Below, piece after piece: positions 3,711 through 50,316 of a DNA stretch of 64,000 nt (its first letter is position 1; each line of letters opens with the position of its first letter). The position numbers were made by a program, and so were the translations under genes. Origin of the DNA: Myxococcota bacterium (lineage in GTDB: Bacteria; Myxococcota; JACRCW01); the NCBI GenBank assembly GCA_040752415.1, contig JBFMGU010000006.1:7779-71778 (forward strand), read 5' to 3'. The notes beneath the pieces were generated by a model. It saw only the letters and a program-made list of their open reading frames with translations. It did no database searches and was not told the DNA's origin.

Positions 3711-6700
3711 GTGCCACATACGTCACCCATGTCTTCCTGGGTCATCACCGCGCCGCAGCGCTGGCCGCTCTGCACGCTGGCGTATCTCAAGGGCAAGGGC
3801 CTGGAGTACGCGCGCGAACGGGCGGGCCGGATGCCACGCACCTACCAGCAGGCGCCGCGGCTGGACGGTGACCACCTCCTTGCCACCCTCACCTCCTTCC
3901 CGCCCGACTCCGATCCTCGTCGTGACTCCCGCAACCCGGAGCGCGTGGCCATCCTGGTGGTGCGCGGTCCCCGTCAGACCCAGCTGCGCGTGGAATGCAC
4001 GTGCGGCGTGTACCGGTGTCTGCACGCGCTGGTGCTGCTGACGGACCTGGCGGTGTGGCCGGACTTCACCCGTGCGCTGACGACGGGACGGGACACCTCC
4101 GCGCTGCTCTCCGGCCTCGACGCTCGACGGGTGGGCCAGCTCCACTCCGCGGCCCTGGAGCAGCGGCTGGGCATCTGGATGAAGGTCCCCGCGGCGCGGG
4201 CGCCCCAGCCGGTGCGCTTCGTGGTCTCGCCGCAGTGGCTCACCGCGGAATGGAACGGCTCCCCGCGCGCGGATTCCACGCCGGCACTGGCGCTGGACGT
4301 CTACGTGGGAACCCGCACGCGGCCGCTTTCCGTCGACGAGCTGGAGACCGCCGCGCTCACCACCGCCGACCGCGAGCTGCTGGAGCTGTGCGTGCTCCAC
4401 CGCTTTGGCGGCGGAGGGTTCGCGGCGCGTGGCTCGGTGGCGTCGCAGGTGCTGGCACAGCTGGAGGGCCGCGCGGTGATGCAACCGGCCAACGTGCGAG
4501 AGGACGAGCGCCCCCTGGCATTCGAGCCGTGGCGTCTGCTTCCGCGCGTGGTGCGTCGCACCGTGCCCCGCGGCTGGCTCCCGGGTGAGGCTCCCGACGA
4601 GGACGACGCCACGGTGGACGCCCTGGTGGCGGAGTGGGCCACCGCCGACGGCACGGTGGTCTCACCCATGACGCGCACCATGTTCTACCCGGGGAGGTCT
4701 CCGCGCGTGCTCTTGTGGGACCGCCTGGTGGTGGCGCACGTGGCGCCCGGCGTCGACGCGCTGCTCGCGCTGCACCTGCAGCGTCAGCCGGTGGTGCGCG
4801 TGGATGATTCCACCACCGCCGCGGCGGCCTGGAACACGCTGCGGAACGCCTGGCGGGGACGCGGGGTGGCCCTGCCCGCGCCGGAGCACGTGGAGGTGGC
4901 CACGGAATCCGCGCTGGCGTTGTGGCTCGCCGTCGACGGGAGCACGCTGCAGGTGGAGGCGCGCCTGGTGGCGGAATACGCCTTTGGCGCCTTTGACCTC
5001 CACCCCGACGAGGCCACCCGGGATCCCCGACGGGACGCCGCGCGCGAGGACGCCGCCGTTGCCGCGGTCCAGGAGGCGGGGCTCAGCTACGACGAGGGCC
5101 AACGCCTCTGGACCGCGGAGGACGACGCGGCCGCGCGCTGGTGGCTGCGCGGTGTCGGCTCCCTGCCCGACGTGGAGGTGCGGGTGGCGGAGTCCCTACT
5201 GGGCATCCAGGTGCGCGGCGCGCTCAAACCGCACCTCGGCGTGGGCGTGATGCAGGGCATGCTGGAGGCGTCGCTGGTGCTGGACGTGAACGGCCTGCGC
5301 GCGGACATGGAGGACGTGCGGCAGGCGCTCCGACGGAAGCGGCGCTTCGTCCGGCTCTCCGACGGAACGCTGGCGGAGATGCAGGACCACCTGCGCGCGG
5401 TGCTGGAGGAGAACCCGGAGCTGGTGACCGGGGGCGGCGTGGCGCGCATCCCGCTGCACCAGGGCGCGCGCGTGCACGCGTGGCTCACCGAGCTGGAAGG
5501 CACCACCAGCAACGAGCCCGCGCAAGCCTGGCGTGACGACGTCACCCGCGGTCCATGGGCGGAAGCGGAGCTGCCCGAGGGCCTGACGGTGGACCTGCGT
5601 CCCTACCAGCGCGAGGGCGTGGCGTGGCTGCAATGGCTCACCCGCGTGGGCGCCGGCGGAATCCTCGCCGACGACATGGGGCTGGGGAAGACGGTGCAGA
5701 CGTTGTGCTGGCTGGCCGGGCTGCATCGGGAGAGGGACGCGGGCACGTCGCTGGTGATCTGTCCCACGTCGGTGGCGCACCACTGGGCGGCGGAAGCGGC
5801 GCGCATGATCCCCTCGCTGCGCGTGGAGGTGTGGCACGGCGCGGAGCGCAAACGGCAACGCCCGAAGGAGCTGGACCTGCTGGTGACGACGTACGGCGTG
5901 GTCCGCCAGGACGCCGACTGGCTCTCCCAGCAGACGTGGAAGGCGCTGGTGCTGGACGAGGCGCAGCAGATCAAGAACGCCGACGCCGTCACCTCCCGCG
6001 TGGTGCGCCAGCTCCCGGCCAGCGTGCGCGTGGCGCTGACCGGAACACCGCTGGAGAACCGGCTGCTGGACCTCTGGACGCTGGTGGACCTGGTGAACCC
6101 GGGGCTGCTGGGCCCGCGCAAGCACTTCGAGGCATTCGTGGAGCCGCTGGTGATGCGTGAGCCCGACGGGTGGCAGTCCCGCCGCATCCGCACGCGCGTG
6201 GCGCCCTACATCCTGCGTCGCACCAAGGCCCAGGTGCTGCGCGACCTCCCCGAGAAGATCGAGCAGGACCGGTCCGTGCTGCCCACCATGCAACAGCGGC
6301 GCGTCTATGATGCCGTGGCCGCCATGGCCCGTGCCGACGTGGCCCGCATGCTGCGCAACAAGGGTGTGGAGCAGGCGCGCATCACGGTGCTGGCCGCGCT
6401 GACCCGCCTGCGCCAGGTGGCGTGCGACCCGCGCCTCGTCGACCCGGAGCGTTCCGCGGAGGAGAGCGCCAAGCGCATGGAGTTCCTGGCGCTGGTGGAG
6501 AGCCTGGTGGCGGCGGGACGACGCGTGTTGGTGTTCAGCAGTTTCGTGGAGCTGCTGACGTTGTGGCGCCGGGACCTGCATGAGCTGGGAATCCGCCACG
6601 AGTACCTGGACGGCGCCACGCGCGACCGCGCGGAGGTGGTGCGTCGTTTCCAGGAGGGCGACGCGCCGCTGATGGTGGTGAGCCTGAAGGCGGGCGGTAC

Positions 6701-37424: not shown

Positions 37425-38285
37425 GTGGCGCGTCTTTCGTCTTTTGTTCGCATGGTGATCGGGCTGGCCTACCTGGCCCTGCTGGTGGCCGCGTTCATGG
37501 CGGTGTGTGTGGTGCTGCTGCCCTCGCGAACGGCGCGCATCAAGGTCTGCAACCTGTTTGGGCACGTCACCGGGCGCATCCTGCTGTGGCTGTGCGGCGC
37601 GCGCGTGACCGAGAACGTGCCGGCACTGATGAAGGCGCACAAGCCAGCGCTGTACCTCTCCAACCACAGCTCCATCCTGGACATCTTCATCGCCATCTGG
37701 TCGTGCCCGGTGGGGACGTGCGGCGTGGCCAAGAAGGAGATCGTCAAGTACCCGTTCTTCGGCCAGCTCTACTGGATCAGCGGTCACCTGCGGCTGGACC
37801 GCAGCAATCACCAGAGCGCAGTGACGGCGTTGAATGAGACGGCGGAGATGGTGCGTCGCAACAAGCTGGGCGTGTGGATGTGGCCGGAGGGGACGCGCTC
37901 CAAGGATGGTCGCCTCTTGCCGCTCAAGCGCGGCTTTGCGCACCTGGCCATGGTGACGCGCCTGCCCATTGTGCCGGTGGTGGTGAAGGGCGCGCACAAG
38001 GGCTGGGAGAAGAACACGCTGCTCATCCAGCCCACCAACGTGGAGATCTCCGTGCTGGACCCCATCTCCACCGAGGACTGGACGGCCGAGAACCTCGACG
38101 AGAAGGTGGCCATGGTGCAGCGCATCTTCAACGACGCGATGCCCGAGGACCAGAAGATGATCCCCCTCAGCGACGAGAAGCAGGCGCGTCGGGCCAAGGC
38201 CATGGCGCGTCTCAGCCGGCTCTCCGCCGCCGCTTCCCAGCCGCCCGCGGCGTCGCCCGCCGAGCCCACCACCGTCACGGCCTGA
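37425..38285 (+). CDS. plsC: 1-acyl-sn-glycerol-3-phosphate acyltransferase
   Basis: N-terminal TM. The H(X)4D motif is NHSSILD, and the block FPEGTRS appears as MWPEGTRS. Confidence 0.85.
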   Translation: MARLSSFVRMVIGLAYLALLVAAFMAVCVVLLPSRTARIKVCNLFGHVTGRILLWLCGARVTENVPALMKAHKPALYLSNHSSILDIFIAIWSCPVGTCGVAKKEIVKYPFFGQLYWISGHLRLDRSNHQSAVTALNETAEMVRRNKLGVWMWPEGTRSKDGRLLPLKRGFAHLAMVTRLPIVPVVVKGAHKGWEKNTLLIQPTNVEISVLDPISTEDWTAENLDEKVAMVQRIFNDAMPEDQKMIPLSDEKQARRAKAMARLSRLSAAASQPPAASPAEPTTVTA

Positions 38286-38330
38286 GCATTCCTCTTTCGC
38301 CATTCCGCAACCATCACCGCGCACCGGGGT

Positions 38331-39143
38331 GTGCAAGGTGGCGTCATGCCTGACGTCGTGAACCGGGGGGTTCGCATCCATTACGACGTGCAGGGCACCG
38401 GTCCCACGGTGTTGCTGCTGGCCGGCCTGGGCTACGGCGGCTGGTACTGGCGTCACGTGCGCGCGCGTCTGTCGCCCCATTGCACCGTCGTCACGGTGGA
38501 CAACCGCGGCTCCGACGGCTCCGACAAGCCCGCCGGTCCCTACACCACCGCGCTGCTGGCCGAGGACGCCGCGGCGGTGCTGGACGTGTTGGGCCGTCTC
38601 TCGACGACGGTGGTGGGGCACTCGCTGGGTGGGCTGATTGCGCAGGAGCTGGCGCTGGCGCGGCCGGACCTGGTGGGCAGGCTGGTGTTGATGTCGACGC
38701 ATCACGGCGGGTGGCAGGCCATTCCGGTCACGCCCGCGGCGTTGGCGGTGATGCTGGACCGCAGTGGGAGCGCGCAGGAGGTGTTCCAGCGCGGCATGGC
38801 GGTGGCCACCGCGCCGGGTTTCTCGACGTCACACCCGGAGCTGGTGGAGGAGCTGCGGGCCTACCGCGCCGGCGGGCCGGTCCCCGCGTCCGCGTACACC
38901 GCGCAGCTGATGGCGGGCGCTGGCCACGACGCCGCGAGCCGGCTCTCACGCATCAGCTGTGACGTGCTGGTCCTCGCCGGCGCGTTGGACCAGGTGGTGC
39001 CGGTGGGAAACGTGGAGCTGCTGCGCAAGCGGATGCCGCACGCGGTGACCCACGTCTTTCCGCGCGCAGGCCACCTGCTGGGCTGGGAGGAAATCGACGA
39101 CGTCAGCGACCAGATCCTGCGCTGGGTCCGCGCGGCGTCGTGA
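38331..39143 (+). CDS. alpha/beta hydrolase
   Basis: The nucleophile elbow is GHSLGG, and LLLAGLGYGGWYW is present. An alternative start is at 38346. The first ~100 codons are duplicated as a decayed copy at 40529..40842. Confidence 0.8.
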   Translation: MQGGVMPDVVNRGVRIHYDVQGTGPTVLLLAGLGYGGWYWRHVRARLSPHCTVVTVDNRGSDGSDKPAGPYTTALLAEDAAAVLDVLGRLSTTVVGHSLGGLIAQELALARPDLVGRLVLMSTHHGGWQAIPVTPAALAVMLDRSGSAQEVFQRGMAVATAPGFSTSHPELVEELRAYRAGGPVPASAYTAQLMAGAGHDAASRLSRISCDVLVLAGALDQVVPVGNVELLRKRMPHAVTHVFPRAGHLLGWEEIDDVSDQILRWVRAAS

Positions 39144-39287
39144 GCGCGTGCATCACGGTGCCACGGACATGGTGCTCAGCGACGGTAGCTGATGGGCATT
39201 GGTTGTCGCTGCGCGCGTCCATGGGCCGTGGCGCAGTCATTCTTGCCTGCGATTCCGCGTGCAAGGGCCATCACTTTCGCGGGTTGT

Positions 39288-39336
39288 CACCACGCGCGCA
39301 CGCCCGGGATGGGAATCCGCAGGGGCAGGGTCCTCT
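39288..39336. repeat. 49-bp repeat copy (ccacgcgcgcacgcccgggatgggaatccgcaggggcagggtcctctgg). The second copy at 41084..41132 forms the 3' end of the rhodanese-like gene
   Basis: The two copies are 47/49 bp identical. Together with the hydrolase fragment they form a degenerate direct duplication bracketing the ArsR-SRPBCC module. Confidence 0.75.
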
Positions 39337-39557
39337 GGGCGTTCACCGCGCCCGGGATGTGGAATTCGTAGGTAATGTAAAACAGGGGTGGACTCGGTCT
39401 CACCCAGGACGAGCGCGGATTGCCAGGACGTGTGCCGCAGCGAACGCGGACATGCAGCGCAAGTGTTGCGGGATCTTCGCTCCGGAGAACGCGCGTGACG
39501 ACGGGTACAGCGTGGCACGTGCTCCACCGCGACGCCGGCGCACGCGTTGCTGCGCGG

Positions 39558-40067
39558 TCACCCTTGCTTGAGGGATTCCACCACGGCGGAGAGTTGGACC
39601 ATGGATTCCCGCATCCCTTCTTCCATGCCCGTGGCAATGACCTGGTCCCGCACTTCCTTGGACGGATAAGTGGAACGGGACGTCATGGTGGTCCTTCCGC
39701 CGTTCTCCGTCAAAGTCACCGTCACGGTGGCGGCCGCGTCCGGGAACGGGTCGAAGATTTCGGTGTTCACCACGCGGTGCGGCGCGTCGATCTCCAGGTA
39801 CTTCCCGTGGAAGCCCACGTCCATCCCGTCGTGGGTGCGCATGGCAAAGCGCCAGCTACCGCCCACGCGGAAATCGATCTTGCATTCCGTCATCTTTCCC
39901 TTGGACGCGGGCGACCACCACTTGCTCACAAGCTCCGGCTCATTCATCGCGCGGAAAACCAGGCGCAGGGGCGCGTTGAAGCTGCGCGTGATGAGAATCT
40001 CCCGATCCGCGGGGAGCTCCAGCGTGGTGCTGTCATTGACGGAATCTTGAGCGGTTCTTGCTTGCAT
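39558..40067 (-). CDS. SRPBCC-superfamily protein (Aha1/activator-of-Hsp90-ATPase-like)
   Basis: It has ITRSFNAPLRLVFRAMNEPELVSKWW and F.GKYLEIDAPHR, typical of the AHSA1/SRPBCC domain. GC3 is visibly lower than in neighbouring genes. Confidence 0.75.
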   Translation of the reverse strand: MQARTAQDSVNDSTTLELPADREILITRSFNAPLRLVFRAMNEPELVSKWWSPASKGKMTECKIDFRVGGSWRFAMRTHDGMDVGFHGKYLEIDAPHRVVNTEIFDPFPDAAATVTVTLTENGGRTTMTSRSTYPSKEVRDQVIATGMEEGMRESMVQLSAVVESLKQG

Positions 40068-40449
40068 GGCTTTTCCTCTCCTTGTTGTGGGTGTGCCGAC
40101 CGGAGTGGCCGGACGTGGCTTTGCCGACGGCGCCCGACTCGGAGCGCTTCAGCTCCTCCAGCACCTCATCCATCTGTGTGAAGCGTTCTTCCCAGAGCTG
40201 GCGGTACCGCTCCGTCCACGCGTGCAACTCACGGATGGGCGCAGGGCGAAGCTCATACACGCGCTGCTGCGCATGCGGTTGCATGTCCACCAGGCCCGCT
40301 TCCTTGAGCACCTTCAAATGCTTGGAGACTTGCGGCTGACGGATGTTGAGCTGGTCCCCAATCTCCCCCACGGGGCGGGCTCCGCTCAGGAGCAGCTCGA
40401 CAATGCGGAAGCGGTTGGGCTCGGCCAGGGCCGCGAAGGTGGCGTGCAT
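40033..40449 (-). CDS. ArsR/SmtB family transcriptional regulator
   Basis: Starting at ATG 40449 gives MHATFAALAEPNRFRIVELLLSGARPVGEIGDQLNIRQPQVSKHLKVLKEAGLV, a winged HTH. Its 3' end overlaps the SRPBCC gene start by ~35 bp. Confidence 0.8.
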   Translation of the reverse strand: MHATFAALAEPNRFRIVELLLSGARPVGEIGDQLNIRQPQVSKHLKVLKEAGLVDMQPHAQQRVYELRPAPIRELHAWTERYRQLWEERFTQMDEVLEELKRSESGAVGKATSGHSGRHTHNKERKSHASKNRSRFRQ

Positions 40450-40528
40450 GGTCAATATATTCTCCATTACGAATAGTCGTGTCAAGGAATATTTACGGGC
40501 AACGCCCGCCGCTGCGGAGACAGAGCAG

Positions 40529-40842
40529 CGCGTCGATGTTGACTACGACGTGGAGGGCACCGGTCCCACGGTGTTGCTGCTGGCCGGCCTGGGCTACGGC
40601 GGCTGGTACTGGCGTCACGTACGCGCGCGGCTGTTGCCGCACTGCTCCGTCGTCACCGTGGACAACTGCGGCTCCGACGGCTCCGAGAAGCCCGCCGGTC
40701 CCTACACCACCGCGCTGCTGGCCGAGGACCCGGCGGCGGTGCTGGACGCGCTGGGACGTTTCTCGACGACGGTGGTGGGGCGCTCGCTGGGCGGACTGAT
40801 TGCGCAGGAGTTGGCCGTGGCGCCGTCGGACCTCGTCGGCTG
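40529..40842 (+). pseudogene. truncated, degenerate copy of the N-terminal ~105 codons of alpha/beta hydrolase 38331..39143
   Basis: ~92% nucleotide identity to 38384..38683. The GHSLGG elbow is changed to GRSLGG, NRGSD is changed to NCGSD, and the frame runs into unrelated sequence (..CGSQTRMSAPQLES) with no hydrolase C-terminus. Confidence 0.65.
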
Positions 40843-41072
40843 CGGCTCGCAGACAAGAATGTCCGCGCCACAGCTTGAGAGCCAATGGAGCTCCCGCCGA
40901 CGACCCCCGTGAAGTCGCTGGGCGCCGCAAGAGGTCCGTGGCGCGGACATTTCTGCCTGCGATCCGCGGCGACGCGGCTCACCGTCAGCCTGCAGCCTCG
41001 TTGGGCGATCGTTGGACGGGGTGCGGTATCGACGAGGACTTCGATCCAGTCGTTTCTCTCCGCGCCGGCTCC

Positions 41073-42020
41073 CTACCACGCGCGCACGCCCGGAATGGGA
41101 ATCCGCAGAGGCAGGGTCCTCTGGTCGAAGAGTCTGCGCGTCTCGTCGCTGACCCACTCCTGCAATGAGCCCTCGAACATCCGCGTCTCGAACCCGAGGT
41201 AACGCGAGACGAAGTACAACCAGCTCGCATCCACGCCCGTGGTGGCGTACGGCACCATCACGTTCCTCCACTCCGCACCGGCGTCGCGGAACAGCTGTCG
41301 CAGCTCCTGCGGGCTCTTGAGATACGGCAGGTCCAGCGAGGTCACCGTGTCCTGCCAGAACACGTTCACCGCGCCGGGAATGTGGCCCGCGCGCGCCATG
41401 CCCTCGGACAGCACCGCACCCAGGTACTCGTCGGGGGAGCGCGCGTCGATGAAGCTGATGGCGGGCTCGAAGAGGCGGTCGGAGACCCAGGAGGCGTCGA
41501 CCATGCGCTCCAACTGGGGCATCACCGTCAGGTTGCCGTAGATACGCTCGGGCACGTCGGGAATGGCGGGGAGGCCCACGTCACGCCAGCCCGCCAGGCC
41601 GCCGTTGAGGATGGCCGTGCGCGCACCGTGGCCCATGAGGTCCAGCAGGAAGAACGCACGCGCCGCGGCATGGGGTGGTCCGTAAAGGATGATGCGCGCG
41701 CTGTCGTCGAGGCCCACGTAGCGGAACGCGGTCTCCAGGTCCTCGAACGCGGGGAAGCGTGGCAGCTGTCCCTCCACGGGGCGCATCAACGCCTCGAGAG
41801 AGAGGAAGCGCGCGCCGGGGATGTGCTCCTCGCGGTAGCTCGAGATGTCCTCGCCCACCTCGATGATCTTGACCGCGGGGTTCTCCAGGTTGTCGCGCAG
41901 CCAGTCCGCGCCGACGAGCAGGTCACCCTGCACCGGGGGCGGACGCGCCTGCATGACGTCGCCACACGCGGCGGACAGGAAGAACAGACAACCAGCGGAA
42001 AGTGCCTTGAGCCGTATCAT
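41073..42020 (-). CDS. two-domain rhodanese-like lipoprotein lacking the catalytic cysteine
   Basis: A lipobox (LFFLSAAC) is followed by tandem rhodanese folds (EEHIPGARFL ... AGHIPGAVNVFW). The loop where CxxGxR is expected reads VPYATTGVDAS, and the mature protein has no Cys. Its last 16 codons lie in the 49-bp repeat. Confidence 0.7.
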   Translation of the reverse strand: MIRLKALSAGCLFFLSAACGDVMQARPPPVQGDLLVGADWLRDNLENPAVKIIEVGEDISSYREEHIPGARFLSLEALMRPVEGQLPRFPAFEDLETAFRYVGLDDSARIILYGPPHAAARAFFLLDLMGHGARTAILNGGLAGWRDVGLPAIPDVPERIYGNLTVMPQLERMVDASWVSDRLFEPAISFIDARSPDEYLGAVLSEGMARAGHIPGAVNVFWQDTVTSLDLPYLKSPQELRQLFRDAGAEWRNVMVPYATTGVDASWLYFVSRYLGFETRMFEGSLQEWVSDETRRLFDQRTLPLRIPIPGVRAW

Positions 42021-42157
42021 GATGCCCTCGCCATCACGGGCGGCGGACCAGGTACGGTGATGAGCACACGGCAGCCGCCGCGCCCTGAGTGGGGATGTAG
42101 CCCCCGCTCCCCCGGCGGCAACAGCAGCGTGTCCGTGTCAGCGACGGAGCAGCGAGC

Positions 42158-44155
42158 TCACATGGCCTCGGGCGCGCGCACGCCCAGCAGCGCCAGGCCG
42201 CGCGCCAGCGTGTTGCGCACCGCGTCCATGAGGTGCAGGCGCGCGGCGCGCACGGGGTCGTTGGGATCCTCCAGCAGCACGCGCTTGCTGCGGTCCTGGT
42301 TGCCGCTGGTGAGGTAGCTGGCGGTGGCCTGCGCAATGTCCATGATGGCGCGCGTCACCAACGAGGGCTCGAACGACTCACACGCCTCCGCCACCACGTC
42401 GGGGAAACTGGCCAGCGCCAGGATCACCGCGCGCTCCTCCTCCAGCTTCAGCAGCGCCGTGTCCGCCGTGGCCGGAACGCCGCCACCCTTCTTGATGATG
42501 CTGCAGGCGCGCGCGTGGCTGAACTGGATGTACGGCCCGGAGAAGCCGTCAAAGTTGATGGCCTCCTCCAGCTTGAAGGTGTAGTCGCTCATGCGGAGGT
42601 TGCGCAGGTCACCAAACACCACCGCGCCCACGCCAATGGCCTCCACCGTCTCGTCGAGGTGGGAGCGGTCGATCTTCTCGGAGGCCTCGCAGATCTCGCG
42701 CGCCTTCTGCACCGCCTCGTCCAGCACCTCGTCCAGGAACACCACGTTGCCGCGGCGCGTGCTCATGCCGTGCACCCGGCCAAAGGCAATGTGCGAGATG
42801 CGCTCCGCCCAGGGGAAGCCCATGGCGCCCAGCGTGCGCTTGAGCTGGTCAAAGTGCAGCGACTGGTCCGCCGCCACGACGTACAGCGAGCGGTCGAAGT
42901 TGAAACGCTGGTGGCGGTCCATGGCCGCGGCGATGTCGCGCGTGACGTAGAGCGTGGTGCCGTCGCGGGTCTTGAGGATGACCGGCGGCTCGCCCTCCTT
43001 GTACGGGAGGTCCACCACGGTGGCGCCTTCGCTGATGCGGGTGCCGGGCTTCTCCGCCACGCGCTTGACGGTGTCCTCCAGCACGTGGGTGTAGAAGCTC
43101 TCACCTTCCAGCGCGTGGAACTGGATGCCCATGCGCTTGTACACGCGCTCGAACTCCGCCACCGACGTCTCGCGGTACTCCTTCCACTCGGCCAGCGCCT
43201 CCTTCTCACCCTCTTCGAGACGCTTGAGGAACAGGCGCGCCTCGCGGTCGCGCGCTTCCGCCTCGGGCAGCTCCGCTTCCGCCTTCTTCTTCTCGGCGTC
43301 CAGCTCGGCGTACCAGGCCTCCAGGCCCGTCAGCGGGTCCCCGCTCTCCATTCCCCGACGGGCGCGCAGCTTCTTCTCCAGGCCCTTCACCTTCCCTTCG
43401 GCACTCTTCTTGGCCTTGGGGTCGGTGGCCTTCTCCGCTTCCGCGCGCGCGGCGGTCAGCTCCGCCACCTGCTTGCGGACCTCCTCGGGCGCGGCAATGG
43501 CGGCCTTGCGACCTTCCACGTCGGCGTCGCGGTTGGCCTTCACGTACACCTCAACCAGGTGCTTGGCATCCGCGCGCCGCTTGGGGTCTCCGTAGCGACG
43601 GAAACCGGTGGCGAGCAGACCAAACTGCTTGCCCCAGTCGCCCAGGTAGTTGATGCCCACCACCTTCCATCCCTGCGCCGCGTGCAGGCGACCAATGGCC
43701 GCGCCAATCACCGTCGAGCGGATGTGGTGGAAGGCCAGCGGCTTGGCGATGTTGGGCGAGGAGAAATCGATCACCACCGTGCGACCACGTCCCGCCTCGG
43801 AGGTGCCGTAGTCGCCCTTGCGCGCCTCGGTGAGGACGGCGCCGGCCAGCGCGGCGGGAGCAATGTGCACGTTGACGTAGGGGCCCACCGCCTCCACGCG
43901 CGCCCAGCGTGCATCCTTGCCCGCCGCGTCGGCAACGCGCTTGGCCAGCTCGGGGGGCTGCAGCTTCAGCCGACGGGCGAGGTCGAACGCGGGCAACGCG
44001 AGGTCACCGCGGCCCGCCTCGGGGATGCGGATCTGCTTGAGGAGCGCCTCCAGCGCGGAGGCCTTGTCTGCGTCGGGAATGCCGGCCACGTCCACGGCGG
44101 TGCTGGCCAGGGCGTGACGGAAGGATGCCAGGGGAGATGCCATGATGCGGGGCAA
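42158..44155 (-). CDS. argS: arginine--tRNA ligase with a ~70-aa Lys/Glu/Ala-rich insertion
   Basis: It has a HIGH-like PLAFHHIRS block, a KMSK-like HGMSTRRGNV block and the C-terminal anticodon-binding DALK domain. An alternative ATG is at 44143. The insertion is ...AELTAARAEAEKATDPKAKKSAEGKVKGLEKKLRARR.... Confidence 0.92.
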   Translation of the reverse strand: MPRIMASPLASFRHALASTAVDVAGIPDADKASALEALLKQIRIPEAGRGDLALPAFDLARRLKLQPPELAKRVADAAGKDARWARVEAVGPYVNVHIAPAALAGAVLTEARKGDYGTSEAGRGRTVVIDFSSPNIAKPLAFHHIRSTVIGAAIGRLHAAQGWKVVGINYLGDWGKQFGLLATGFRRYGDPKRRADAKHLVEVYVKANRDADVEGRKAAIAAPEEVRKQVAELTAARAEAEKATDPKAKKSAEGKVKGLEKKLRARRGMESGDPLTGLEAWYAELDAEKKKAEAELPEAEARDREARLFLKRLEEGEKEALAEWKEYRETSVAEFERVYKRMGIQFHALEGESFYTHVLEDTVKRVAEKPGTRISEGATVVDLPYKEGEPPVILKTRDGTTLYVTRDIAAAMDRHQRFNFDRSLYVVAADQSLHFDQLKRTLGAMGFPWAERISHIAFGRVHGMSTRRGNVVFLDEVLDEAVQKAREICEASEKIDRSHLDETVEAIGVGAVVFGDLRNLRMSDYTFKLEEAINFDGFSGPYIQFSHARACSIIKKGGGVPATADTALLKLEEERAVILALASFPDVVAEACESFEPSLVTRAIMDIAQATASYLTSGNQDRSKRVLLEDPNDPVRAARLHLMDAVRNTLARGLALLGVRAPEAM

Positions 44156-44819: not shown

Positions 44820-45404
44820 TCACGCCGACGTGCCGCGCGTGCTCCTGGCCCATTGCGGCGCCTGATCACCCACGCGCACCACGATGACGCAGTTGGGCGC
44901 GCCCCCGTGCATGCACTGCCGCTCCACCATGCCCACCGGCTCGTCGTAGTGGCGCGCCAGCGCGGTGATGATGCCCTTGGCCACGCCGCACATCTTCCGC
45001 GCGGAGCCGTAGGTGATGGTGACCTCGTCGGTGCCGCTGCGGTTGCACACCAGCTCCGGCGGCGCCGCCCCCTTGTTCTCGATCTGCACCACGCGATGGA
45101 TGGCCCCCTGCGTGTTCAGCAGGACGTCCAATGTCCGCCACTCCGGCTTGATGAGCCGCTGGTACTTCTTGACGAGGTTGGGACCGATGAACTCACCGAA
45201 CGCCTCCAGCAGCACCGGCACCGGCTTCCCCGTCAGGCGTGACGCCGTGGTCACCAGCGCCAACGCATCCGCGTCGGGATACCGCTCCATGGGCAGGAAC
45301 ATCCTCCCGGACATGCCGGCGGCCTTCAGCAGCTCATCCCATGCTTTCTCGCCCAGGTTCGCGCCCACAAAGGCGCGCAGCTCGGCGAAGATGACGCCAT
45401 GCAT
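44820..45404 (-). CDS. H-NOX (heme nitric oxide/oxygen-binding) domain protein, stand-alone
   Basis: Starting at ATG 45404 gives MHGVIFAELRAFVGANLGEKAWDELLKAAG.... The candidate proximal His is in TQGAIHRVVQ, and the Y-x-S-x-R propionate-binding motif is in ITYGSARKM. ~194 aa, typical H-NOX length. Confidence 0.7.
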   Translation of the reverse strand: MHGVIFAELRAFVGANLGEKAWDELLKAAGMSGRMFLPMERYPDADALALVTTASRLTGKPVPVLLEAFGEFIGPNLVKKYQRLIKPEWRTLDVLLNTQGAIHRVVQIENKGAAPPELVCNRSGTDEVTITYGSARKMCGVAKGIITALARHYDEPVGMVERQCMHGGAPNCVIVVRVGDQAPQWARSTRGTSA

Positions 45405-45482
45405 TGTGTGTCCCTTCAGTTCACGTCGACGTGCGGGAGCGCCAGTCAAACCCGGCACAGCGCGTCCCAACCAGCGTTGGCG

Positions 45483-48287: not shown

Positions 48288-50216
48288 TCACTCCGGGTCG
48301 CACATCCCGTCGCAGGTGGGCTCCACCACGCCATCCGGCTTGAGGAACCGCTTCTTCATCTCGATGGCCGCCGCGAGACGTCGCACCGCCTCGTGCGTCT
48401 CATTCCCTTCCGCGGCCTCGTTGGTGGGCGGGGGCGTCTTGCTCACCGGCACCCCGAAGTACACGTACGCCGACGGCGCCGTCTCCACCGTCTCAAAACC
48501 CCACGGCGTGCGTGCGCTCTGGCTGAGCAGCGGCAACCCCGCCGTCCCGTACACCATGTCGGAGGCCAGGTTGGGGACCTGCGCGTCGTCGGTGCCAATC
48601 TGCGAGAGCACGTAACGCACCGTCGAGCCCGGCAGCGGGTCCTTCACCACGTGCGGCGCATAGCTCACCGGGTCCGCGTAGTCCCACAGGCTCTGGATCA
48701 TCGCCAGGATCACCTGTCGCTCCACGGGCACGCGGTAGCTGTCGTCGAACACCAGCGACATGGCCGGCCAGTTGGCGCTGCGCTGGATCATCATGGACCA
48801 GTTGCCCGCGCCCACCCCCACCACGCCACGCTCGATGTCCGGCGTGAGCGCCAGGAACGTGAGCCCCATGATGCCGCCCAGGCTGTTGCCGTCGTAGTAG
48901 GTGGTTCCCTCGTCGATGAGCCGGCTCCCGTCGGCGCGCTGGAGCTCGGGCGCGTCGCCCAGGATGCCGCGCACGGTGCGCGTGAGCGCAATGGTGTCAA
49001 TCACCGCCTGCTGCAGCCGGGAGGCGGTGCGGTGGAACAGGCTCATGTCCCGCAGCGCGTTGGTGACAATGCCCACGTCCTGCTCGGTGAGGCCGGTCCA
49101 GTTGGTGGCCGCCACCACATAGCCCAGCTCCTCGGCGAGACGACGCACGTGACCGCTCTGGATCTCGTCATAGCCGGAGCCCAGCAGCCCGTGCCCGTAG
49201 ATGAGCAGCGGCACCGGCCCCGGGGCGTTCATGGCCTTGGGCGGCACCACCACGGTGAACTCACGGTCCCATTCCCCCGTCGCCACCGGGGTGCCGGACG
49301 CGTCGCGCGCCAGCGTGGCGGTGAAGCCGCCCTCGTCGGTGAGGAAGAGCGGGGAGCGGAAGGTCCCGTCCACCAGGCGCGCCACGTCCGGGTACGTGTT
49401 CTCCCGGGAGCGTGAGATGGCATACGCAATGCCGCGGTTTCCCAGCGTCGTCAGCGCCTGCTCACGCATGCTGAGCAGCGCGCCGGTGATGGCTTCCTGG
49501 GAGGCGGTGTGCACCTCGAACGCGAGCAGCAGGTCGTCCCGGGTGAGCCCCAGCTGCGTCGCCACCTCCATGGCCTCCACCAGCGACGCCCGACGGGACT
49601 CCAGCCGCGCGCTGGTGGTGGGCAGACCGTCCAGCACCGCCTGGAACCCCGCGCTGCGCGGCACCGCGCTCCCGTCCAGCGCACGCACCCGGTGCGTCAC
49701 CACGACGAGATAACGCGCATTGTTCCGCAGCCGCCGCATGGGCCGGATGATGAGCGTGCGCTCGCCGGGCTCCTCCACGGTCATGTCCAGCTCGGAGAAA
49801 TGCGGCACGCGCTCCCGGCGCTCCACGTCGATCAACACGGTCCCGCTCTCGGCGGTGAGGCTGCGCGCAATGTCATCCTGCGGCGGCAAGGCGGTGTTGG
49901 AGATGGCCACCGGGAAATGCACCATGTACGGCGCCGCGGGCGAGAACCCGTCCTGGTCCAGGGAGGTCACATCCACGGGAATTCCCTCACTGCTCAGCGG
50001 CGCGGCGCCCTGGGGGATGCGCACGCGTCGACCGGTGACGGTGCTGGCGTCGACTTCCAGGTACATGCTGGAGGGGAACGGGTTGAGGCACTCCGGGCCG
50101 TAGCCCAGCGGATTGCACGGCTCCGCCGCCACGTTGACCGCCGGTGGCGTCCCCGACGTGGAAGAGCAGGAAACCAGGAGCAACAGGACCCACAACGGTT
50201 GACGACCTTGACGCAT
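48288..50216 (-). CDS. secreted alpha/beta-hydrolase-fold lipoprotein (lipase/esterase-like)
   Basis: Starting at ATG 50216 gives MRQGRQPLWVLLLLVSCSS, a lipobox. GxSxG is YDGNSLGG, and LLIYGHGLLGS is present. ~640 aa. Confidence 0.75.
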   Translation of the reverse strand: MRQGRQPLWVLLLLVSCSSTSGTPPAVNVAAEPCNPLGYGPECLNPFPSSMYLEVDASTVTGRRVRIPQGAAPLSSEGIPVDVTSLDQDGFSPAAPYMVHFPVAISNTALPPQDDIARSLTAESGTVLIDVERRERVPHFSELDMTVEEPGERTLIIRPMRRLRNNARYLVVVTHRVRALDGSAVPRSAGFQAVLDGLPTTSARLESRRASLVEAMEVATQLGLTRDDLLLAFEVHTASQEAITGALLSMREQALTTLGNRGIAYAISRSRENTYPDVARLVDGTFRSPLFLTDEGGFTATLARDASGTPVATGEWDREFTVVVPPKAMNAPGPVPLLIYGHGLLGSGYDEIQSGHVRRLAEELGYVVAATNWTGLTEQDVGIVTNALRDMSLFHRTASRLQQAVIDTIALTRTVRGILGDAPELQRADGSRLIDEGTTYYDGNSLGGIMGLTFLALTPDIERGVVGVGAGNWSMMIQRSANWPAMSLVFDDSYRVPVERQVILAMIQSLWDYADPVSYAPHVVKDPLPGSTVRYVLSQIGTDDAQVPNLASDMVYGTAGLPLLSQSARTPWGFETVETAPSAYVYFGVPVSKTPPPTNEAAEGNETHEAVRRLAAAIEMKKRFLKPDGVVEPTCDGMCDPE

Positions 50217-50316
50217 GACCGCGACCTCCGACGGGTGCGCAGTCTGCCGCCCGATGATGCATTTGGCCAGTCCGTCGCCATCCGACAAACCGCGGCTGTG
50301 CTAGAGAGATGGGTGA

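What the first reader, a model, noticed from the sequence alone, without database searches (positions are those of the whole stretch)
38331..41150. Degenerate segmental duplication bracketing an ArsR-SRPBCC module with atypical codon usage
The first ~300 bp of hydrolase 38331..39143 recur at 40543..40842 at ~92% identity. The copy is a pseudogene: its active-site Ser elbow is mutated and its frame is lost. A 49-bp segment, 39288-39336, recurs at 41084-41132, where it encodes the C-terminus of the rhodanese-like gene. A shorter match links 39240-39260 with 40951-40970.

The ancestral arrangement was therefore hydrolase, then a convergent rhodanese. That junction is now present twice, with the ArsR regulator and its SRPBCC/Aha1-like partner between the copies.

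The SRPBCC gene has visibly more A/T-ending codons than its neighbours. An unusually AT-rich stretch (gtaggtaatgtaaaacagg, ~39360-39380) marks one junction. Together this looks like an acquired regulatory module inserted with partial duplication of the target.
Basis: seen in the sequence. Interest (0 to 1): 0.55.

Follow-up and report, generated by a model that had tools for sequence, protein, structure and literature searches.

The report
Decayed duplication flanking an ArsR–SRPBCC cassette
A roughly 1.2-kb piece of chromosome spanning the ends of a hydrolase gene and a rhodanese-like gene is present twice, with an intact two-gene regulator cassette exactly at the joint, and each copy has since lost one of the two genes; this is an ordinary rearrangement scar, not a new kind of system.

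Summary
The repeats are real. 38382-38678 matches 40544-40840 (297 nt, 91.2%, no indels, E 7e-111). 39205-39253 matches 40914-40963 (78%). 39289-39341 matches 41075-41127 (94%).

Together they define a direct duplication of the convergent hydrolase/rhodanese junction, originally about 1.2-1.3 kb. An 1181-nt insert (39363-40543) sits at the joint and carries an intact ArsR-SRPBCC operon with its own conserved promoter/operator.

The left copy keeps the whole hydrolase and 74 nt of rhodanese. The right copy keeps the whole rhodanese and codons 18-116 of the hydrolase.

The fragment is a pseudogene, but not for the stated reasons. Its Ser is retained (GHSLG to GRSLG) and its frame is open. It lacks a start, the catalytic Asp and His, and carries R59C, H97R and P112S. 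NCBI annotates it as a 154-aa protein.

Foreign origin is unproven. The insert is the lowest-GC stretch in the window, and SRPBCC GC3 (0.82) lies below all 34 reference genes. However, homologous cassettes elsewhere also sit below their flanks, and no close donor or relative is sampled. The source is a singleton Myxococcota MAG.

Most likely this is an insertion-duplication followed by complementary decay. Interest is low.

The parts
38331..39143 (+). Intact alpha/beta-hydrolase gene. NCBI calls it from ATG 38346 as MEW5847554.1.
   Evidence: Pfam Abhydrolase_1 at 4e-27. Ser98 (GHSLG), Asp220 and His248 are present at invariant or nearly invariant columns. GC3 is 0.90. Accession.
38382..39362 (.). 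Left copy (A) of the duplicated segment. It comprises hydrolase codon 18 to the stop, the spacer, and a 74-nt rhodanese remnant.
   Evidence: Collinear blastn matches to 40544-41385. Homology stops at 38381|38382 and at 39362|39363.
39205..39253 (.). Spacer motif in the left copy, homologous to 40914-40963.
   Evidence: 78% identity with one gap, E 3e-6. The global alignment extends it to about 39190-39262.
39287..39362 (-). Rhodanese pseudogene remnant. The stop codon (TGA) and last 17 codons are fused in frame to the HIPGAVN motif, with 237 nt (79 codons) deleted in between.
   Evidence: pieces D2 and D6. tblastn matches rhodanese residues 300-315 at 100%. The stop sits at the same position as in the intact gene, read from the sequence.
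39363..40543 (.). Insert at the joint of the duplication (1181 nt). It holds 195 nt of unassigned sequence, SRPBCC, ArsR, the promoter/operator, and 42 nt of unassigned sequence.
   Evidence: No homology to either duplicate copy. GC is 62.5%, below every sampled 1163-nt stretch of the window.
39363..39557 (-). Unassigned 195 nt downstream of SRPBCC. Its AT-rich end (39363-39390, 39% GC) abuts the breakpoint. On the minus strand there is a small hairpin followed by UGUUUUA.
   Evidence: No similarity to the regions downstream of homologous cassettes. The fold is weak, with z +0.3. Composition.
39558..40067 (-). SRPBCC/AHSA1-family gene, intact (MEW5847555.1).
   Evidence: Pfam AHSA1 at 9e-27. 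It is 61-68% identical over its full length to Myxococcota homologs, with 70 invariant columns. A GGAGAGG Shine-Dalgarno-like sequence lies upstream (sequence).
40033..40449 (-). ArsR/SmtB-family regulator gene, intact, 138 aa (MEW5847556.1). Its 3' end overlaps the SRPBCC start by 35 nt.
   Evidence: Pfam HTH_5 and HTH_20. Alignment to homologs. The same overlapping gene pair is found in L013, L014 and L016. The sequence contains no Cys.
40450..40501 (-). Cassette promoter/operator region. On the minus strand it reads AAATATTCC-TTGACA-N17-GAATAT, ending 7 nt before the ArsR ATG. The inverted half-sites are ATATTCC and GGAGAATAT.
   Evidence: Conserved with the ArsR upstream regions of Minicystis rosea and two Myxococcota MAGs. 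The blastn alignment to L013 runs to 40501. Function is inferred. The consensus promoter scan did not call this site.
40544..40840 (+). Hydrolase pseudogene fragment, corresponding to codons 18-116. It is annotated in GenBank as a 154-aa 'alpha/beta hydrolase' (MEW5847557.1, ORF 40448-40912).
   Evidence: 91.2% identical to 38382-38678 with no indels. There are 14 synonymous and 12 nonsynonymous changes, dN/dS 0.32. R59C, H97R, P112S, R-to-P and A-to-P are derived in this copy at conserved sites, and there is no homology after residue 116. The only in-frame start overlaps the ArsR start codon on the other strand. Accession.
40544..41385 (.). Right copy (B) of the duplicated segment. It comprises the hydrolase fragment, a rearranged spacer, and the 3' 313 nt of the intact rhodanese gene.
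40832..40978 (.). 147-nt near-perfect palindrome in the right-copy spacer. Its right arm is the ancestral spacer motif. Its left arm (40839-40871) is an inverted copy placed exactly where hydrolase homology ends.
   Evidence: Inverted repeat I1. RNA fold of -89.6 kcal/mol, z -6.55, reached by 0 of 200 shuffles, while the equivalent left-copy spacer has z +0.5.
41073..42020 (-). Intact rhodanese-like gene (MEW5847558.1) with two rhodanese domains and a lipoprotein-like N-terminus. The catalytic Cys is replaced by Ala.
   Evidence: Pfam Rhodanese, 2 stretches. Alignment with 8 homologs that all carry Y-C-x-x-G where this protein has Y-A-T-T-G.

Best explanation
SHOWN
The convergent junction between an alpha/beta-hydrolase gene and a rhodanese-like gene is present as two direct copies.
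- The duplicated unit ran from hydrolase codon 18 to about rhodanese codon 211, counted 313 nt from the rhodanese stop.
- It was originally about 1.2-1.3 kb.
- An 1181-nt insert lies exactly at the novel joint.
- The insert carries an intact, self-contained ArsR-to-SRPBCC bicistron with its own conserved promoter/operator.
- The left copy keeps the only complete hydrolase. The right copy keeps the only complete rhodanese.
- The redundant halves have decayed. The left rhodanese is reduced to 74 nt by truncation plus an in-frame 237-nt deletion. The right hydrolase is reduced to 297 nt, and its 3' part is replaced by an inverted copy of the adjacent spacer.

INFERRED (most likely mechanism)
One insertion-duplication event produced this layout. 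Circular DNA carrying the cassette joined to an internal fragment of the hydrolase/rhodanese junction integrated by a single homologous crossover (Campbell-type).
- This automatically gives intact-left-gene / truncated-right-gene, then the insert, then 5'-truncated-left-gene / intact-right-gene.
- Deletions and substitutions then accumulated in the two non-functional halves.
- Neutral divergence between the copies is about 0.18-0.22 per site. Either the event is old or the incoming homologous fragment came from a relative diverged by that much.

INFERRED (cassette function)
The ArsR protein represses its own promoter through the AATATTCC / GGAATAT inverted repeat until a ligand or signal releases it. 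This co-expresses the SRPBCC ligand-binding protein. The ArsR has no cysteine, so it is not a thiol-type metal(loid) sensor.

CONFIDENCE
About 0.9 for the anatomy and about 0.45 for the single-event mechanism.
For: - Four collinear matches share one orientation (E 7e-111, 3e-6, 4e-17, 7e-4). None of them has another copy elsewhere in the 64 kb.
- The geometry is exactly that of an insertion-duplication. The right hydrolase copy lacks the first 17 codons and any usable start. The left rhodanese copy lacks its 5' two-thirds.
- Laboratory Campbell-type integration is described as giving a tandem duplication whose distal copy lacks promoter and translation start (PMC2924362).
- The cassette is complete and portable. 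The same ArsR-SRPBCC pair with overlapping genes occurs in Minicystis rosea and two other Myxococcota genomes, each time with different neighbours. The promoter/operator is conserved. Both proteins align at full length with homologs.
- Decay of the redundant halves is visible. Replacements derived in the fragment hit conserved sites. The rhodanese remnant has an in-frame 237-nt deletion. A fold-back palindrome sits at the hydrolase truncation point.
- The insert is the lowest-GC stretch of the window, and SRPBCC GC3 lies below all 34 reference genes.
Against: - No insert-free allele could be found. The lineage is a singleton: all five proteins are single-member clusters, the nearest homologs are 55% and 46% identical, and both contig scans were empty of relatives.
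- dN/dS between the hydrolase copies is 0.32. If the fragment had been dead from the start, about 0.55 or more is expected. It would also have accumulated about 19.5 replacements, against at most 11 observed (P about 0.03). Its GC3 has not drifted (0.919 in both copies) and it has no indels. This leans toward a period when both hydrolase copies were functional. That fits either a diverged donor allele or the two-step rival.
- The compositional signal is weak evidence of foreign origin. Homologous cassettes are also below their flanks in GC, and no near donor is sampled.
- The cassette carries no recombinase, and no mobile-element genes lie within the surveyed neighbourhood.
- Three other cassette loci show no flanking duplication.
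Confidence: 0.5

Rival explanations
1. Two-step history. First, the whole hydrolase-spacer-rhodanese unit duplicated in tandem, and both hydrolase copies functioned for a time. Later, the ArsR-SRPBCC cassette replaced the middle of the array by illegitimate or homology-facilitated recombination. That event removed the 5' two-thirds of the left rhodanese and the promoter plus first 17 codons of the right hydrolase. The cassette would then not be the cause of the duplication.
For: - dN/dS of 0.32, no indels and unchanged GC3 in the fragment.
- Fewer fragment-derived replacements than neutral decay over the whole divergence time predicts (P about 0.03).
- Both observations suggest the right hydrolase copy was constrained for part of the time.
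Against: - It needs two independent rearrangements at the same spot, with both insertion breakpoints falling inside the two redundant genes.
- No trace remains of the sequence that would have lain between the two units.
- The numbers are small (26 substitutions), and a pairwise omega of 0.55 is not rejected (P = 0.16).
Confidence: 0.3
2. The cassette is resident rather than incoming. The ancestral order was cassette-hydrolase-spacer-rhodanese. A copy of hydrolase-spacer-partial-rhodanese was then placed upstream of the cassette by duplicative rearrangement. After that, the original hydrolase lost both of its ends.
For: - The cassette family is typical of Myxococcota and is equidistant from all sampled homologs.
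- Its low GC is partly a family trait.
- ArsR lies divergently next to the hydrolase fragment.
Against: - It requires an extra deletion to remove the first 17 codons of the right copy.
- The 94 nt between the ArsR start codon and the start of hydrolase homology hold no usable in-frame hydrolase start. The only in-frame ATG overlaps the ArsR start codon.
- It is less parsimonious than one insertion-duplication.
Confidence: 0.12
3. Metagenome-assembly artefact. The contig is a chimera of two co-occurring strains about 91-94% identical, and the duplication does not exist in any one genome.
For: The source is a MAG. The copies differ by 6-9%, which is in the range of strain or species variants. 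No reads are available to check this.
Against: - Each copy carries its own private deletion and is joined directly to a different end of the cassette.
- A chimeric join would still require each strain to have a truncated remnant next to the cassette.
- Assemblers do not create in-frame internal deletions or fold-back palindromes.
Confidence: 0.05

Closest known systems
Campbell-type (single-crossover) insertion-duplication. It is used routinely with non-replicating plasmids. PMC2924362 describes a tandem duplication whose distal copy lacks promoter and translation start.
   Same: Direct repeats of the target flank the insert. The left copy retains the intact 5' end of the left gene. The right copy is 5'-truncated. 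The right-hand gene is intact only in the right copy.
   Different: This case is natural, old and decayed (91-94% identity with private deletions). No vector or replicon functions are present, only a two-gene cassette. The circular donor is inferred, not observed.
Tandem duplication followed by complementary degeneration of the redundant copies.
   Same: One functional copy of each gene survives, each in a different repeat unit. The other copies are pseudogene fragments.
   Different: A foreign-looking 1.18-kb cassette occupies the join point. Simple unequal or illegitimate recombination does not explain that.
Duplications with a mobile element at the join point, such as IS- or transposon-held duplications. 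This comparison rests on my own knowledge of bacterial genetics and was not checked here.
   Same: An element sits exactly at the novel joint of a direct duplication.
   Different: The cassette encodes no transposase and has no terminal inverted repeats. No second copy exists in the window.
Genomic-island integration into the 3' end of a gene, with a partial duplicate of the target forming attL and attR.
   Same: A partial copy of the target gene's end is left on the far side of the insert.
   Different: There is no integrase and no tRNA target. The duplicated segment is about 1.2 kb and spans two genes, rather than tens of bases.
ArsR-AHSA1/SRPBCC two-gene operons. These are noted as a large group in Frankia with the regulatory link unresolved (PMC4531530). 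Here they were also found in Minicystis rosea and in Myxococcales and Archangiaceae MAGs.
   Same: Same gene order, overlapping stop and start, and 60-68% protein identity to the three Myxococcota loci examined. The AATATTCC/GGAATAT promoter motif is conserved.
   Different: Only this copy is bracketed by duplicated flanks. Its ArsR has a 10-residue insertion in the basic tail, and the gene overlap is 35 nt instead of 20-23 nt.

Membership tests
Alpha/beta-hydrolase fold (Pfam PF00561/PF12697): gene 38331-39143 | Profile match above the curated cut-off over the whole fold. | tested here: met
   Abhydrolase_1 scores 95.9 bits against a cut-off of 25.8, covering residues 25-254.
Alpha/beta-hydrolase fold: gene 38331-39143 | Catalytic triad: Ser in a G-x-S-x-G elbow, plus Asp and His. 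| tested here: met
   S98 lies in GHSLG at an invariant column. D220 and H248 lie at nearly invariant columns.
Alpha/beta-hydrolase fold: fragment 40544-40840 (annotated as protein MEW5847557.1) | Complete fold with the catalytic triad. | tested here: not met
   Only residues 18-116 are homologous. The elbow Ser is present (GRSLG) but Asp and His are absent. R59C, H97R and P112S fall at conserved sites. The Pfam match covers profile positions 1-90 of 245 only.
ArsR/SmtB transcription regulators | Winged-helix HTH_5 / HTH_20 domain. | tested here: met
   HTH_5 scores 45.3 bits (cut-off 22) and HTH_20 scores 46.2 bits (cut-off 27).
ArsR/SmtB transcription regulators | Cysteine-based metal(loid) sensing site, such as the alpha-3 CxC motif. 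| tested here: not met
   The 138-aa protein has no cysteine in the translation or the alignment. His/Asp/Glu alpha-5-type sites were not evaluated.
ArsR/SmtB transcription regulators | Autoregulation through an inverted-repeat operator in its own promoter. | tested here: inconclusive
   An AATATTCC...GGAATAT inverted repeat overlapping a TTGACA box is conserved across four cassettes. Binding cannot be tested with these tools.
SRPBCC / AHSA1 (PF08327) | Profile match above the cut-off over the full domain. | tested here: met
   AHSA1 scores 94.2 bits against a cut-off of 22.1, covering profile positions 1-125 of 125.
Tandem-domain rhodanese sulfurtransferase | Two rhodanese domains. | tested here: met
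   PF00581 matches in 2 stretches.
Tandem-domain rhodanese sulfurtransferase | Catalytic Cys in the C-terminal-domain active-site loop. | tested here: not met
   The window protein has Y-A-T-T-G where all 8 aligned homologs have Y-C-x-x-G.
Campbell-type insertion-duplication | Direct repeats of the target flank the insert, with complementary truncation of the two flanking genes. | tested here: met
   Collinear same-strand matches. The right hydrolase copy lacks its 5' end and the left rhodanese copy lacks its 5' part.
Campbell-type insertion-duplication | An insert-free, unduplicated target exists in relatives. | not testable with these tools
   No close relatives were found in genome contigs or metagenome contigs. 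Contexts of distant homologs are not syntenic.
Integrase- or transposase-borne mobile element | A recombinase gene, a tRNA or short att target, or terminal inverted repeats. | tested here: not met
   The insert holds only ArsR and SRPBCC. The ten neighbouring ORFs scanned between 29.8 and 53.9 kb show no mobile-element domains. The window has no tRNA. The repeat scan found no inverted repeat pairing the two ends of the insert.
Horizontally acquired DNA (compositional criterion) | Composition or codon usage outside the host range and not explained by the gene family. | tested here: inconclusive
   The insert GC of 62.5% is the window minimum. SRPBCC GC3 has z = -2.2 and ArsR GC3 has z = -1.5. 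Homologous cassettes elsewhere are also below their flanks.

The most novel reading that the evidence does not exclude
ArsR-SRPBCC cassettes might be recombinase-free mobile units. They would spread between Myxococcota chromosomes by circularising with a piece of neighbouring DNA and re-integrating by homologous crossover, leaving kilobase-scale target duplications that later decay. This locus would then be a rare case caught before the scars vanished.
Probability: 0.03. Interest if true: 0.55.

Novelty: new member of a known kind. Interest (0 to 1): 0.22.

Why it matters
- It is a clean, fully mapped natural example of an insertion-duplication scar with complementary pseudogenisation. It is useful as a teaching case for how small regulator cassettes can be placed into bacterial chromosomes without a dedicated recombinase.
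- It corrects a public annotation. MEW5847557.1, a 154-aa 'alpha/beta hydrolase', is a gene fragment. The neighbouring 'rhodanese-like' protein lacks its catalytic cysteine.
- It does not reveal a new system or mechanism.

Tried and rejected
1. Synteny test in relatives. Scans of genome contigs and metagenome contigs with the hydrolase returned only 25-32% identical proteins. Exact-protein look-ups of the window's rhodanese and hydrolase were not on record.
2. Contexts of the nearest rhodanese homologs (46% and 44%) and hydrolase homologs (54% and 53%) show no hydrolase-rhodanese adjacency. They are too distant to be informative.
3. A donor remnant in the 195 nt downstream of SRPBCC. blastn, tblastx and alignment against four homologous loci found nothing beyond the coding regions and the promoter.
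4. Systematic flank duplication around homologous cassettes. None was found in L013, L014 or L016. A cassette-specific mobility mechanism is therefore not supported.
5. Non-coding RNA or tRNA as an integration target. There are no Rfam or tRNA hits in the whole window.
6. Terminator and promoter scans of 38200-42200 found nothing above shuffled expectation. The hairpin next to the AT-rich junction is no better than shuffles.
7. Chance similarity was rejected on E-values and collinearity.
8. GC3-only gene calling mis-called the antisense frame of SRPBCC (39670-40050 +, GC3 0.87). The homology-supported frames were used instead.
9. Literature searches for ArsR with SRPBCC or AHSA1 gave only a passing mention of such operons in Frankia.

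Full report
**Source and gene content**

The window is 69.6% GC. Exact-sequence look-ups place it on an 89,005-bp contig of an NCBI metagenome-assembled genome labelled 'Myxococcota bacterium'. Pfam assigns the genes as follows:

| Coordinates | Strand | Assignment |
|---|---|---|
| 37425-38285 | + | acyltransferase |
| 38331-39143 | + | alpha/beta hydrolase |
| 39558-40067 | - | AHSA1/SRPBCC |
| 40033-40449 | - | ArsR (HTH_5/HTH_20) |
| 41073-42020 | - | two-domain rhodanese |
| 42158-44155 | - | arginyl-tRNA synthetase |

GenBank lists five consecutive proteins here, MEW5847554.1 to MEW5847558.1. The fourth, MEW5847557.1, is a 154-aa 'alpha/beta hydrolase' read from 40448-40912.

**The observation**

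Repeat finding and blastn of 38250-39560 against 40440-42100 give four collinear, same-strand matches:

| Left copy | Right copy | Length | Identity | E-value |
|---|---|---|---|---|
| 38382-38678 | 40544-40840 | 297 nt, no gaps | 91.2% | 7e-111 |
| 39205-39253 | 40914-40963 | about 50 nt, one gap | 78% | 3e-6 |
| 39289-39341 | 41075-41127 | 53 nt | 94% | 4e-17 |
| 39340-39362 | 41363-41385 | 23 nt | 91% | 7e-4 |

- None of these has another copy elsewhere in the 64 kb, and none of the four proteins has a paralog in the window.
- The hydrolase repeat starts at nt 52 of the ORF, not at its first base.
- Upstream of 38382/40544, nucleotide identity collapses to 5 of 15, so the breakpoint is 38381|38382 = 40543|40544.
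- The 23-nt piece encodes the HIPGAVN motif of the C-terminal rhodanese domain.
- In the left copy this motif is fused in frame to the last 17 codons, which means a 237-nt (79-codon) internal deletion.
- The stop codon lies at the same position in both copies, TGA in the left copy and TAG in the right copy.
- Homology ends at 39362|39363, which corresponds to 41385|41386.

**Anatomy that follows**

- The left copy is 38382-39362 (981 nt). The right copy is 40544-41385 (842 nt).
- Adding back the private deletions gives an original unit of about 1.2-1.3 kb. It ran from hydrolase codon 18 to a point 313 nt from the rhodanese stop.
- The 1181 nt between the copies (39363-40543) are unrelated to either copy.
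- The left copy holds the only complete hydrolase, with Ser98, Asp220 and His248 all present. It also holds a 74-nt rhodanese remnant.
- The right copy holds the only complete rhodanese and a 297-nt hydrolase fragment.
- In the right copy the hydrolase 3' part (465 nt) and about 46 nt of spacer are missing.
- At that truncation point lies an inverted copy (40839-40871) of the neighbouring spacer motif (40938-40970).
- This makes 40832-40978 a 147-nt hairpin of -89.6 kcal/mol, z -6.55, reached by 0 of 200 shuffles. The equivalent spacer in the left copy has z +0.5.
- I read this as a fold-back rearrangement that accompanied the deletion. That reading is an inference. The alternative is that the palindrome is ancestral and the left copy lost one arm.

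**Is the fragment a pseudogene?**

- The elbow serine is retained (GHSLG becomes GRSLG).
- The 297 nt have no indel or stop, and the frame stays open to 40912.
- The case for a pseudogene rests on three points:
  - There is no homology to the first 17 codons, and the only in-frame start (ATG 40448) overlaps the ArsR start codon on the other strand.
  - There is no homology after residue 116, so the catalytic Asp and His are absent.
  - Of 12 amino-acid differences, R59C, H97R, P112S, R-to-P and A-to-P are derived in the fragment at invariant or nearly invariant columns of a 20-sequence alignment. Only one difference (V for A) looks derived in the intact gene.
- The GenBank protein MEW5847557.1 is therefore a gene fragment.

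**Divergence between the copies**

- The hydrolase pieces differ by 14 synonymous and 12 nonsynonymous changes: dS 0.18, dN 0.059, dN/dS 0.32.
- The non-coding spacer piece is 22% diverged.
- Strict neutrality of both copies is rejected (P = 0.006).
- A pairwise omega of about 0.55 is expected if the fragment had been dead throughout. This is not rejected (P = 0.16).
- However, at most 11 fragment-derived replacements are seen, against 19.5 expected (P about 0.03).
- GC3 is 0.919 in both copies.
- This is a weak hint that both hydrolase copies were constrained for part of their separation. It fits either an incoming homologous fragment from a diverged relative or a period with two working paralogs.

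**The insert**

- SRPBCC and ArsR are full-length and well conserved. SRPBCC is 61-68% identical to its homologs, with 70 invariant columns. ArsR is 53-68% identical.
- The nearest database relatives are about 70% identical for both genes. Those that carry a source name are mostly labelled Myxococcota: Minicystis rosea, Polyangiaceae, Nannocystaceae, Archangiaceae.
- In Minicystis rosea, a Myxococcales MAG and an Archangiaceae MAG, the same ArsR-to-SRPBCC pair occurs with a 20-23-nt overlap (35 nt here). Its neighbours are unrelated each time.
- The region upstream of ArsR is conserved among the four cassettes. On the ArsR strand it reads AAATATTCC-TTGACA-17 nt-GAATAT, ending 7 nt before the ATG, with ATATTCC/GGAATAT inverted half-sites.
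- blastn to Minicystis runs to window position 40501.
- The insert is therefore a self-contained operon with its own promoter/operator. Autoregulation and a near-leaderless transcript are inferences.
- The ArsR has no cysteine, so a thiol-type metal(loid) site is excluded.
- The 195 nt downstream of SRPBCC (39363-39557) and the 42 nt at 40502-40543 match nothing.
On the cassette strand it follows a small hairpin, but the fold is no better than shuffles.

**Is the insert foreign?**

- Its GC (62.5%) is below every sampled 1163-nt stretch of the window (mean 69.5%, sd 2.05).
- SRPBCC GC3 is 0.817 against 34 reference genes (mean 0.889, sd 0.032, minimum 0.824). About 5% of 170-codon chunks of other genes are as low, and its codon log-likelihood z is -1.8.
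- ArsR (GC3 0.842, z -1.5) is within range.
- As a control, homologous cassettes in three other genomes are also 1-9 GC points below their flanking genes. In two of the three, one or both cassette genes also have lower GC3.
- The window's cassette is as far from every sampled homolog as those are from each other.
- The ten neighbouring ORFs scanned between 29.8 and 53.9 kb show no recombinase or other mobile-element domains. The window has no tRNA or Rfam hit.
- Foreign origin is therefore possible but not shown.

**External comparison**

- Scans of 185,579 species-representative genomes and of JGI metagenomes found no hydrolase relative above 32% identity.
- The best protein-database homologs are 55% (hydrolase) and 46% (rhodanese) identical. 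Their contexts are not syntenic.
- All five proteins are singleton clusters.
- Three other cassette loci have no duplicated flanks. This argues against a cassette-specific mobility mechanism.

**Mechanism**

The geometry is: intact left gene and truncated right gene, then the insert, then 5'-truncated left gene and intact right gene. This is what a single-crossover (Campbell-type) integration produces when a circle carries the insert plus an internal fragment of the target. The laboratory version is described as giving a tandem duplication whose distal copy lacks promoter and translation start (PMC2924362).

| Scenario | Probability |
|---|---|
| Single insertion-duplication event, then decay of the two redundant halves | about 0.45-0.5 |
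| Tandem duplication first, cassette later replacing the middle of the array (favoured slightly by the dN/dS hint) | about 0.3 |
| Cassette was resident and a hydrolase-spacer-partial-rhodanese copy was placed upstream of it | about 0.12 |
| MAG assembly chimera | about 0.05 |

The chimera is unlikely because each copy has its own deletion and each is joined to a different end of the cassette.

**Comparison with known things and verdict**

- The rearrangement belongs to known kinds: insertion-duplication, or tandem duplication with complementary degeneration.
- The cassette belongs to the widespread but functionally unresolved ArsR-AHSA1/SRPBCC operons, noted for Frankia in PMC4531530.
- Nothing here needs a new mechanism.
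- The finding is real, well delimited and tidy. It has two annotation consequences: the 154-aa 'hydrolase' is a fragment, and the 'rhodanese' has Ala in place of the catalytic Cys.
- It is of low general interest.

Noticed in passing
41073-42020 (-), active-site loop at about 41230-41256: The intact rhodanese-like protein has Y-A-T-T-G where all eight aligned homologs have the catalytic-cysteine loop Y-C-x-x-G. It also has a 14-residue insertion near its C-terminus. It probably cannot act as a sulfurtransferase.
   Followed up: partly
40448-40912 (+): GenBank annotates the hydrolase fragment as a real 154-aa protein (MEW5847557.1). Its ATG overlaps the ArsR ATG on the opposite strand (CATG at 40447-40450).
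   Followed up: yes
40832-40978: A 147-nt near-perfect palindrome (-89.6 kcal/mol, z -6.55) lies between the hydrolase fragment and the rhodanese stop. It is absent from the equivalent spacer of the other copy and has no other copy in the window. It could be a fold-back rearrangement scar or an ancestral bidirectional terminator.
   Followed up: partly
40450-40501 (-); L013 about 4620-4690, L014 about 4590-4640, L016 about 4580-4640: A conserved promoter/operator-like motif, AATATTCC-TTGACA...GGAATAT, lies upstream of ArsR in four Myxococcota ArsR-SRPBCC cassettes. In the window the -10-like hexamer ends 7 nt before the ATG, which suggests a leaderless or near-leaderless mRNA.
   Followed up: partly
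40033-40449 (-): The ArsR-family protein has no cysteine at all. It carries a Lys/Arg/His-rich C-terminal tail that overlaps the SRPBCC start. The basic tail and the overlap are shared by homologs.
   Followed up: partly
39670-40050 (+): The antisense frame of the SRPBCC gene is an open 126-codon ORF with GC3 of 0.87, higher than the true gene's 0.82. A GC3-based gene caller picks the wrong strand here.
   Followed up: yes
39364-39370 and 40468-40474: The 7-mer ATTCGTA near the left end of the insert recurs inverted (TACGAAT) inside the ArsR promoter near the right end. It was seen by eye only, is probably chance or part of the operator, and was not tested statistically.
   Followed up: no
44820-45482 (-) and 48288-50300 (-): A 220-aa H-NOX (haem-NO-binding) protein gene sits next to an Acyl_transf_3 gene. 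Separately, a 670-aa ORF with good coding statistics has no Pfam family at E <= 1e-5.
   Followed up: no
whole window 1-64000: No tRNA gene and no Rfam family reach threshold anywhere in the 64 kb.
   Followed up: yes
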